The notes under the pieces are model-generated. The model was not told where the DNA came from. It did not search any database and was given only the letters and a program-made list of their open reading frames with translations. From NCBI RefSeq assembly GCF_056746865.1, contig NZ_CM163382.1: a DNA stretch of 64,000 nt, one strand, 5' to 3'. The translations under genes and the position numbers were made by a program. Each line of letters starts with the position of its first letter. Position 1 is the first letter of the stretch. Below are positions 62,608 to 62,656 of this stretch, piece by piece.

Positions 62608-62656
62608 CAGCCCTGACACTACGCAGCGCAAAAAAAGCTGCTCAATGTCAGGGCTG
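62608..62656 (+). other. nested inverted repeat downstream of malZ (possible terminator or junction structure)
   Basis: outer 11-bp stem cagccctgaca / tgtcagggctg enclosing inner stem gcagc / gctgc with an A7 loop. Confidence 0.5.

What the first reader, a model, noticed from the sequence alone, without database searches (positions are those of the whole stretch)
62608..62656. Nested hairpin at the boundary between malZ and the AT-rich gene
An 11-bp perfect inverted repeat (cagccctgaca / tgtcagggctg) encloses a second stem (gcagc / gctgc) with an A7 loop, about 35 nt after the malZ stop and just before the composition drops to AT-rich. It may simply be the malZ terminator, but it sits where the boundary of an inserted segment would be expected.
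Basis: seen in the sequence. Interest (0 to 1): 0.35.

Follow-up and report, generated by a model that had tools for sequence, protein, structure and literature searches.

The report
Terminator-like hairpin heading an orphan-gene islet
The hairpin is real, but it is an ordinary single-copy stem-loop at the front of a 1.7-kb orphan-gene insertion that about a fifth of E. coli strains carry between malZ and acpH; it most likely ends or stabilises the malZ transcript and is not a mobile-element boundary repeat.

Summary
The nested hairpin at 62608-62656 is exactly as described: an 11-bp perfect outer stem, a 4x4 internal loop, a 5-bp inner stem and a 9-nt loop containing A7. It folds at -30.8 kcal/mol, z = -6.8. 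It is absent from K-12-type E. coli and from other Escherichia species, where malZ and acpH are only 4 nt apart. It therefore belongs to a 1,678-bp AT-rich segment found in 1,127 of 5,426 complete E. coli genomes, always at this locus and always in single copy. The segment carries one 489-aa orphan gene with no detectable relative outside Escherichia/Shigella. The far end of the segment holds no direct or inverted partner for the hairpin. There is no recombinase, no second copy, no Rfam match, and nothing on phages or plasmids. The hairpin starts 33 nt after the malZ stop and is followed by a U-rich tail (AGUUUGUUAAAUAUUU). A crude terminator score ranks it 18th of 2,610 hairpin ends in the window, but the score is borderline and turns negative in most other alleles. 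Best reading: a terminator-like or 3'-protective hairpin that came in with the insertion and insulates the orphan gene from malZ. This function is inferred, not shown. Interest is low.

The parts
60757..62574 (+). malZ (maltodextrin glucosidase), 605 aa. Its stop codon TAA at 62572-62574 is the last position homologous to island-free genomes.
   Evidence: ORF list; RefSeq annotation of the identical stretch in strain 118UI; the match in 4,300 or so island-free genomes ends at query position 175 = window 62574.
62575..62607 (+). Left edge of the inserted segment: 33 nt between the malZ stop and the hairpin foot. It replaces the 4-nt spacer (cgtt) of island-free E. coli.
   Evidence: Junction comparison. 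It is polymorphic among alleles: T/A at 62593, a 1-nt indel, T/C at 62604 and C/T at 62607.
62608..62656 (+). Nested hairpin: outer stem 62608-62618/62646-62656 (11 bp perfect), 4x4 internal loop, inner stem 62623-62627/62637-62641 (5 bp), loop 62628-62636 (GCAAAAAAA).
   Evidence: The outer stem is invariant in 7 distinct unbiased alleles. The inner stem is broken in one lineage (T62639G), the internal loop varies (T62642A), and the A-run is 5-7 long. On the - strand the RNA helix is stronger: -36.6 kcal/mol, and a continuous 21-bp helix in allele L145.
62657..62673 (+). U-rich tail after the hairpin (AGTTTGTTAAATATTTG). The first U is 2 nt after the stem and the run is interrupted by G and AAA.
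   Evidence: Sequence. Tail score nT is 3.76 if the stem is extended by the two extra pairs seen in this allele, and about 2.5 otherwise (and hand calculation).
62677..62699 (+). Second, weak terminator-like site (CGTTCGATATGAGCG + ATTTTTGG).
   Evidence: Consensus scan. The stem is weakened in most other alleles (T62679A), so it is probably not significant.
62763..64000 (+). AT-rich orphan gene (489 aa in this allele), with GGAG 7 nt upstream of the ATG. It runs off the window and would end at window-equivalent 64232. It contains a 12-nt in-frame tandem repeat at about 63581-63724.
   Evidence: Full copy in L001 9364-10833, annotated 'hypothetical protein' WP_000155935.1. No homologues beyond itself. 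Repeat. Intact in all 8 alleles examined, dN/dS 0.45-1.8.

Best explanation
The hairpin is the first structured element of a 1,678-bp, E. coli-specific, AT-rich islet inserted between the convergent genes malZ and acpH. The islet runs from window 62575 to window-equivalent 64252. It consists of a 188-nt leader, one orphan gene and a 20-nt trailer. It replaces the ancestral 4-nt spacer and is linked to a synonymous recoding of the last acpH codon and stop. The hairpin is not a repeat, not a mobile-element end and not a known RNA family. It lies 33 nt after the malZ stop, on the malZ strand, and is followed by a U-rich tail. It therefore most likely acts on the malZ transcript as a moderate-efficiency intrinsic terminator and/or a 3'-end protective stem-loop. 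This would keep maltose-induced transcription from running into the orphan gene. It would also separate malZ from acpH, which overlap transcriptionally in K-12. What is shown: the structure, membership in the insertion, single copy, lack of a partner, and derived state. What is inferred: the terminator or insulator function.
For: - Structure: (-30.8 kcal/mol, z = -6.8).
- Absent from island-free genomes: homology ends at the malZ stop in genomes lacking the gene, and K-12, O104:H4 and O155:H21 junctions read TAA-cgtt-TTATAA.
- Derived state: E. albertii and four other Escherichia lineages from GTDB also have the 4-nt junction and no orphan gene.
- Distribution: 1,127 of 5,426 genomes carry the leader, one place each, all chromosomal and all at malZ.
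- Terminator-like anatomy: it is co-oriented with malZ and 33 nt past the stop, and 5 of the 8 bases starting 2 nt after the stem are U. A d'Aubenton-Carafa-type score (formula from memory, calibrated by rank) gives d = +6.6, rank 18 of 2,610 hairpin ends on both strands of the window. The top rank is the textbook-looking brnQ terminator at 59172-59199.
- Only candidate signal: nothing else between the malZ stop and the orphan gene's start folds as stably, and neither the empty K-12 junction nor the islet's right end folds better than shuffles (z = +0.4 to +0.8).
- K-12 context: malZ-acpH is listed as a convergent excludon in K-12 (PMC12288877, Table 1), so there is no effective terminator there.
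- Conservation: the outer stem is unchanged in 7 distinct alleles that differ at 12 of 140 flanking intergenic positions.
Against: - The hairpin is atypical for an intrinsic terminator: 49 nt, two stems separated by a 4x4 internal loop, and a 9-nt terminal loop.
- The U-tract starts 2 nt after the stem and is interrupted.
- In most alleles (A at 62658) the two extra basal pairs are lost and my recalculated score is negative, about -9.
- The consensus terminator scan did not call it.
- Conservation is statistically uninformative: 1.9 changes are expected in the 22 outer-stem positions and 0 are seen, p about 0.15.
- One lineage carries a disrupted inner stem.
- The RNA helix is actually stronger on the opposite strand (-36.6 against -30.8), because two C.A/A.C mismatches on the + strand are G.U pairs on the - strand.
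- No 3'-end mapping data could be found.
Confidence: 0.5

Rival explanations
1. Passive passenger. The hairpin was, for example, the terminator of the neighbouring gene in the unknown donor. It was carried in with the orphan gene by illegitimate recombination and has no selected role in E. coli today.
For: The conservation test is not significant (0 changes observed against 1.9 expected). One lineage tolerates a broken inner stem, and loop length drifts between A5 and A7. The orphan gene itself evolves almost neutrally (dN/dS 0.45-1.8). Equally stable hairpins occur in coding sequence without known function.
Against: The 11-bp outer stem is intact in every allele seen, although synonymous divergence between orphan-gene alleles reaches dS 0.08. 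A hairpin of this strength directly behind a stop codon will affect RNA 3' ends whether selected or not, so 'no effect' is unlikely even if 'not selected' is true.
Confidence: 0.22
2. The functional molecule is the minus-strand RNA. The hairpin would stabilise or process (via RNase III) an antisense transcript that runs from the acpH side or from spurious promoters in the AT-rich gene towards malZ.
For: The - strand fold is stronger: -36.6 kcal/mol, z = -7.5, the third most stable of 25,578 windows. The + strand internal loop becomes U.G, U-A and G.U pairs on the - strand. The only substitution seen in that loop (T62642A, allele L145) turns the remaining A x G mismatch into a U.G pair, giving a continuous 21-bp helix at -37.9 kcal/mol.
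Against: No U-tract follows the hairpin on the - strand (GUGACUAACGACG); tail score 2.4, d = -5, rank 61. No promoter-like site was found on either strand in 62300-63100. Three of four loop positions pairing by chance has p about 0.15, and a single substitution proves nothing.
Confidence: 0.1
3. 5'-leader element of the orphan gene. In read-through transcripts from malZ the hairpin would regulate the orphan gene's expression, for example as an attenuator or a processing site that generates the mature 5' end.
For: It lies in the 188-nt leader of the orphan gene and always travels with it. No convincing sigma-70 promoter lies between the hairpin and the ATG, so the gene may depend on read-through.
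Against: The hairpin is 106 nt upstream of the ATG and does not involve the GGAG ribosome-binding site. There is no Rfam match. No alternative-structure signature was seen.
Confidence: 0.1
4. Recombination or integration structure: the left end of a mobile cassette (IS200/IS605-type subterminal hairpin, integron attC, MITE end) that delivered the orphan gene.
For: It sits 33 nt inside the left junction of a single-gene insertion that lacks target duplications. Single-gene orphan cassettes with a folded site are typical of integrons. A GTTAAAT (GTTRRRY-like) motif lies just 3' of the hairpin.
Against: No partner at the other end. No recombinase or transposase domain in the only ORF. One copy per genome and only one locus in 5,426 genomes. 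No copy on plasmids, phages or viral contigs. The 23 metagenomic hairpins that share the 11-mer arms have unrelated interiors and contexts. No RYYYAAC inverse core and no extrahelical bases. The TTAC 12 nt upstream is not conserved (TAAC in L005).
Confidence: 0.04

Closest known systems
Rho-independent (intrinsic) transcription terminators of Enterobacteria
   Same: A GC-containing stem-loop on the coding strand a few tens of nt after a stop codon, followed by a U-rich stretch. It scores within the top 1% of hairpin ends in the window on a stem-energy plus T-tail score.
   Different: Much longer and bipartite (49 nt, 4x4 internal loop, 9-nt loop). The U-tract is displaced by 2 nt and interrupted. 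The score is borderline or negative in most alleles, and the site is not called by the consensus scan. No experimental 3' end is known.
REP/BIME and ERIC extragenic palindromes (3'-end mRNA stabilisers)
   Same: A stable extragenic palindrome between convergent or co-directional genes that could protect the upstream mRNA from 3' exonucleases.
   Different: Those are multi-copy families with a consensus. This hairpin is single-copy in every genome and matches no Rfam family.
Strain-specific orphan-gene islets inserted between conserved core genes in E. coli
   Same: A short AT-rich (about 33% GC) segment with one orphan gene, present in a subset of strains (including O157:H7 and Shigella dysenteriae) and absent from sister species, with no mobility genes.
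   Different: Nothing unusual for the class. The notable details are the precise fit between two convergent stop codons, the linked synonymous recoding of the acpH end (TTATAA to TCAGAG), and the total absence of homologues among 1.84 billion cluster representatives.
Integron attC sites / IS200-IS605 subterminal hairpins
   Same: A two-stem hairpin with an internal unpaired spacer, located next to a single promoterless-looking orphan gene.
   Different: No core motifs, no extrahelical bases, no partner end, no recombinase and no other copies.

Membership tests
Intrinsic (Rho-independent) terminator | Stable GC-containing stem-loop on the transcribed strand | tested here: met
   -30.8 kcal/mol, z = -6.8; 7 of 11 outer-stem pairs are G-C. 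The architecture is atypical: 49 nt with an internal loop.
Intrinsic (Rho-independent) terminator | U-tract of about 7-9 nt immediately 3' of the stem | tested here: inconclusive
   The tail is AGUUUGUUAAAUAUUU, with 5 U in the 8 nt that start 2 nt after the stem. Tail score is 3.76 with the extended stem and about 2.5 without. The d-score is +6.6 in this allele and about -9 in the A62658 alleles (formula recalled from memory). The consensus scan did not call it.
Intrinsic (Rho-independent) terminator | Located downstream of, and co-oriented with, a gene's stop codon | tested here: met
   33 nt after the malZ stop, on the same strand.
Intrinsic (Rho-independent) terminator | RNA 3' ends observed at the U-tract | not testable with these tools
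   No usable Term-seq data. The supplement of PMC7547250 is not held, and PMC5597208 has no entry for malZ, acpH or yajB.
REP/BIME/ERIC-type repeated extragenic palindromes | Many copies per genome sharing a consensus | tested here: not met
   Exactly one place per genome in 1,127 genomes and none in the rest. Only one site with both arms exists in the window. No Rfam match.
Mobile-element end (TIR, IS200/IS605 hairpin, MITE) | Matching direct or inverted partner at the other end of the inserted segment | tested here: not met
   Best local alignments of the two ends are no better than shuffles (direct p = 0.21, inverted p = 0.71). The repeat finder gives only a 12-of-16 match.
Mobile-element end (TIR, IS200/IS605 hairpin, MITE) | Associated transposase or recombinase, or multiple insertion sites | tested here: not met
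   The only ORF has no Pfam, NCBIfam, PADLOC, PHROG or PDB match. There is a single locus in all genomes. Nothing on plasmids or phages (the two 'plasmid' hits are 4.9-Mb chromosomes).
Integron attC site | RYYYAAC ... GTTRRRY cores flanking an imperfect hairpin with extrahelical bases, located 3' of the cassette ORF | tested here: not met
   By inspection, only a GTTAAAT lies 3' of the hairpin, with no inverse core 5' of it. The outer stem is perfect with no bulges, and the hairpin is 5' of the ORF.
Strain-specific inserted islet (accessory segment) | Present in some strains, absent with an intact empty site in others and in sister species; deviant composition | tested here: met
   1,127 of 5,426 E. 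coli genomes carry it. Empty 4-nt junctions occur in other E. coli, E. albertii and four other Escherichia lineages. GC is 0.29-0.40 against about 0.53 in the flanks.

The most novel reading that the evidence does not exclude
The hairpin is the surviving recognition structure of an undescribed hairpin-dependent, single-gene insertion mechanism. This mechanism would have dropped an orphan gene precisely between two convergent stop codons. Alternatively, the hairpin is a minus-strand RNA element: the G.U asymmetry favours that strand, and it would control the malZ/acpH convergent pair in islet-bearing strains.
Probability: 0.05. Interest if true: 0.55.

Novelty: new member of a known kind. Interest (0 to 1): 0.15.

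Why it matters
It matters little beyond annotation. It shows that in about a fifth of sequenced E. coli, including O157:H7, the malZ-acpH convergent overlap seen in K-12 is replaced. In its place are a hairpin and a fast-evolving, E. coli-only orphan gene. If the hairpin does terminate malZ, these strains differ from K-12 in how malZ and acpH interfere with each other. The orphan gene is the more interesting object for follow-up: it has no homologues anywhere, dN/dS near 1, an always-intact reading frame and an in-frame variable repeat.

Tried and rejected
- **Rfam:** permissive search on 62300-63000 and gathering search on the whole window found nothing relevant.
- **Orphan protein, family and structure searches:** Pfam, NCBIfam, PADLOC, PHROGs and PDB sequence searches gave only noise.
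- **Orphan protein, homologue search:** an exhaustive HMMER search of 1.84 billion representatives returned only the protein itself and its fragments.
- **Orphan protein, structure prediction:** AlphaFold2 single-sequence gave pLDDT 39, so no fold search was run.
- **Phage and plasmid collections:** no phage hit. The two 'plasmid' hits are mislabelled 4.9-Mb chromosomes.
- **Viral contig scan for the hairpin arms:** 0 hits.
- **Metagenome scan for the arms:** 53 loci. Thirty are the same E. coli locus. The other 23 are unrelated hairpins sharing only the 11-mer, with different interiors and GC 0.44-0.72, judged to be background. Because that scan required exact arms, it cannot be used to judge stem conservation.
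- **Partial hit in strain HS-02 (H70):** this looked like a hairpin remnant without the gene, but it is a garbage poly-A/T assembly of the islet.
- **'Truncated' match in H7:** this is only a shorter tandem repeat breaking the megablast alignment; the ORF is intact at 461 aa.
- **IS608-like TTAC target upstream of the hairpin:** wrong distance, not conserved, and not at the junction.
- **attC reading:** cores are absent.
- **Literature:** no paper on the locus apart from the K-12 excludon list, and no held Term-seq tables.
- **Guessed locus tags (Z0503, ECs0454):** these returned only unrelated oncology papers.

Full report
**Observation.** The window reads CAGCCCTGACA CTAC GCAGC GCAAAAAAA GCTGC TCAA TGTCAGGGCTG at 62608-62656. 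The outer arms (11 nt) are perfectly complementary. The inner arms GCAGC/GCTGC pair around a 9-nt loop that contains the A7 run. malZ is the 605-aa ORF at 60757-62574, so the hairpin foot is 33 nt past the stop codon. GC content falls from about 0.53 to 0.29-0.40 immediately downstream. RNA folding returns exactly the nested hairpin at -30.8 kcal/mol, z = -6.81, with none of 200 shuffles as good. The window has 6 perfect inverted repeats with arms of at least 11 nt and spacers of 3-40 nt, against 0.63 expected. Only 0.12% of 25,578 sliding 60-nt windows reach -30 kcal/mol. A similarly stable hairpin inside a coding sequence (6086-6145, which I recognise as lacZ-like) shows that stability alone is no proof of function.

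**Core or insertion?** A megablast of 62400-64000 against 5,426 complete E. coli genomes finds the malZ end in 5,419. In the genomes that lack the AT-rich gene, the match stops at query position 175, which is the last base of the malZ stop codon.

- In K-12-type, O104:H4 and O155:H21 genomes the junction is TAA-cgtt-TTATAA. malZ and the convergent acpH are 4 nt apart and there is no hairpin.
- In strain 118UI, which is 100% identical over the query, the interval is 1,678 nt. It consists of a 188-nt leader with the hairpin, a 489-aa 'hypothetical protein', and 20 nt up to the acpH stop.
- A scan of one genome per GTDB species with the MalZ C-terminus returned 80 loci. E. albertii and four other Escherichia lineages all have the tight 4-nt junction (spacers cgtt, agcc, cgtc, tacc), and none has the orphan gene.

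The empty state is therefore ancestral and the segment is a derived, E. coli-specific insertion. The hairpin belongs to the insertion, 33 nt from its left edge. All filled alleles also carry TCAGAG instead of TTATAA at the acpH end. The amino acid (Leu) and the stop are kept, but three of six bases differ, so the indel haplotype reaches 6 nt into acpH.

**Copy number and relatives.** The 189-nt leader query (62575-62763) hits 1,127 of 5,426 genomes, one place each, always chromosomal and always next to malZ.

- The arms occur once in the window.
- They are absent from viral contigs.
- Neither the permissive Rfam search around the hairpin nor the gathering search of the whole window gives a match.
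- A metagenome scan for the two arms returned 53 loci. Thirty are the same E. coli locus. The other 23 are unrelated hairpins with different interiors, flanks and GC content, which I take as background for a collection of that size.

**Is there a partner at the far end?** No. The repeat finder gives only a 12-of-16 direct match. Local alignment of the left junction against the right junction is no better than shuffles, either direct (p = 0.21) or inverted (p = 0.71). The right end has no significant structure (z = +0.65), and neither does the empty K-12 junction (z = +0.4 to +0.8).

**The cargo.** The 489-aa protein has no Pfam, NCBIfam, PADLOC, PHROG or PDB match.

- The word-indexed search returns only proteins from Escherichia and Shigella dysenteriae at 87% identity or more.
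- An exhaustive HMMER search of 1.84 billion cluster representatives returns only the protein itself and fragments of it.
- It is not on phages or true plasmids.
- AlphaFold2 without an alignment gives pLDDT 39, so I ran no fold search.
- Eight alleles are all intact, with dN/dS of 0.45-1.8. Length varies from 461 to 501 aa through an in-frame 12-nt tandem repeat.

It looks like a real but fast-evolving orphan gene. Nothing in it suggests a recombinase.

**Variation in the hairpin.** I collected eleven loci without reference to the hairpin sequence, and they give 7 distinct leader alleles.

- The 11-bp outer stem is invariant.
- One lineage has T62639G, which breaks the inner stem and lowers the fold to -26.7 kcal/mol.
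- One lineage has T62642A in the internal loop.
- The A-run is 5, 6 or 7 long.
- Outside the hairpin, 12 of 140 leader columns vary. About 1.9 changes would therefore be expected in the 22 outer-stem positions and none is seen (p about 0.15).

This is suggestive at best, and there is no covariation.

**Which strand?** Only the + strand has a U-rich tail (AGUUUGUUAAAUAUUU). The - strand hairpin is followed by GUGACUAACGACG. However, the - strand RNA helix is stronger, at -36.6 kcal/mol. The C.A and A.C mismatches of the + strand internal loop are G.U pairs on the other strand. The T62642A allele gives a continuous 21-bp helix on the - strand. With four loop positions and one substitution this is not significant, but I keep it as a rival.

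**Terminator likeness.** I scored every MFE hairpin end in the window on both strands. The score combined stem energy per length with a T-tail term, using the d'Aubenton-Carafa form. I recalled the coefficients from memory, so only the ranks should be trusted.

- The brnQ terminator at 59172-59199 ranks first.
- The malZ hairpin ranks 18th of 2,610 with d = +6.6.
- Its - strand version ranks 61st with d = -5.
- The positive score depends on two extra basal pairs that exist only when 62658 is G. For the commoner A allele I calculate about -9.
- The simple consensus scan does not call the hairpin, because its loop and stem rules exclude nested structures. It does call a weak second site at 62677-62699, which is degraded in other alleles.

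**Context from the literature.** In K-12, malZ-acpH is listed among convergent excludons, that is, gene pairs with overlapping transcripts (PMC12288877, Table 1). This is consistent with the absence of any structure at the empty junction. I found no paper on the islet or its gene, and no held 3'-end tables for O157:H7.

**Conclusion.** The following points are shown:

- The hairpin is real.
- It is part of a derived, single-locus, single-copy orphan-gene islet.
- It has no partner at the other end.
- It has no associated recombinase.
- It matches no known RNA family or repeat family.

The function is inferred. By position, orientation and tail it most likely ends and/or protects the malZ transcript and shields the orphan gene from it (confidence about 0.5). 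The main rivals are a functionless passenger from the donor (0.22), a minus-strand RNA element (0.10), a leader element of the orphan gene (0.10) and a recombination site (0.04). This is an ordinary feature of low interest. The orphan gene beside it is the more curious object.

Noticed in passing
window 62763-64000 (continues to window-equivalent 64232; full copy L001 9364-10833): A 489-aa AT-rich orphan gene found only in E. coli and Shigella dysenteriae. It has no homologue among 1.84 billion cluster representatives and no domain hits. dN/dS is 0.45-1.8, yet the ORF is intact in all 8 alleles examined.
   Followed up: partly
window 63581-63724 (L001 10182-10325): An in-frame 12-nt tandem repeat (about 8-12 copies, encoding a KIAEKIAKKTEEENAKK-like stretch). 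Its copy number varies between strains, giving proteins of 461-501 aa. It also breaks megablast alignments, which mimics truncation.
   Followed up: partly
L001 10854-10859 (outside the window; acpH 3' end): All islet-bearing alleles have TCAGAG where all empty alleles have TTATAA or TTACAA. The last Leu codon and the stop of acpH are recoded at 3 of 6 bases with the protein unchanged. The indel haplotype therefore extends into acpH; the cause is unexplained.
   Followed up: partly
L001 11436-11653 (acpH-queA intergenic, outside the window): This intergenic region is 218 bp in 118UI and in WP4-W18 (L005), against 92 bp in K-12 and O157. The extra roughly 126 bp (…CACTCACCCCAGTCACTTACTTAATGTAAGCTCCTGGGGA…) resembles an ERIC/IRU element from memory; I did not test this.
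   Followed up: no
window 19415-19467: A perfect inverted repeat with 21-nt arms (ATATACTATAGGGGGGTATGC … GCATACCCCCCTATAGTATAT) and an 11-nt spacer. It is the most stable 60-nt hairpin in the window (-38.7 kcal/mol). Its identity was not examined.
   Followed up: no
window 59172-59199: A textbook intrinsic terminator (AACCACGGGGCTGCGATGCCCCGTGGTT + TTTTATTG) between brnQ and proY. It ranks top in the terminator-like ranking. Strain 118UI has an IS200C inserted in this same intergenic region; the window does not.
   Followed up: no
window 32633-32662 and 281-306: Two further perfect inverted repeats with arms of at least 11 nt: TAATGCCCGTCAAGGATTTGACGGGCATTA and AGTGCGCTGCTGCTTAGCAGCGCACT. Not examined.
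   Followed up: no
L003 2501-3612 (E. coli HS-02, NZ_CP172818.1): The place of the islet is filled with about 1.1 kb of near-pure A/T low-complexity sequence, and acpH is annotated 45 nt longer. This looks like a long-read assembly or polishing failure over the AT-rich gene rather than biology.
   Followed up: partly
L112, L115, L125, L135 (metagenome contigs Ga0307968/47/60/42): An unrelated 48-nt hairpin with the same 11-mer arms occurs twice, 169 nt apart, with identical flanks. This is a tandemly repeated element in an unknown organism of about 50% GC.
   Followed up: no
L011-L086 (malZ downstream in other Enterobacteriaceae): Where acpH lies within the fetched flank, the malZ-acpH interval varies widely between genera: from about 4 nt in Escherichia and Siccibacter to roughly 0.8-4.9 kb in Salmonella, Citrobacter, Enterobacter, Kosakonia and others. 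In many loci acpH was not within 5 kb. The junction seems to be a recurrent insertion point.
   Followed up: no
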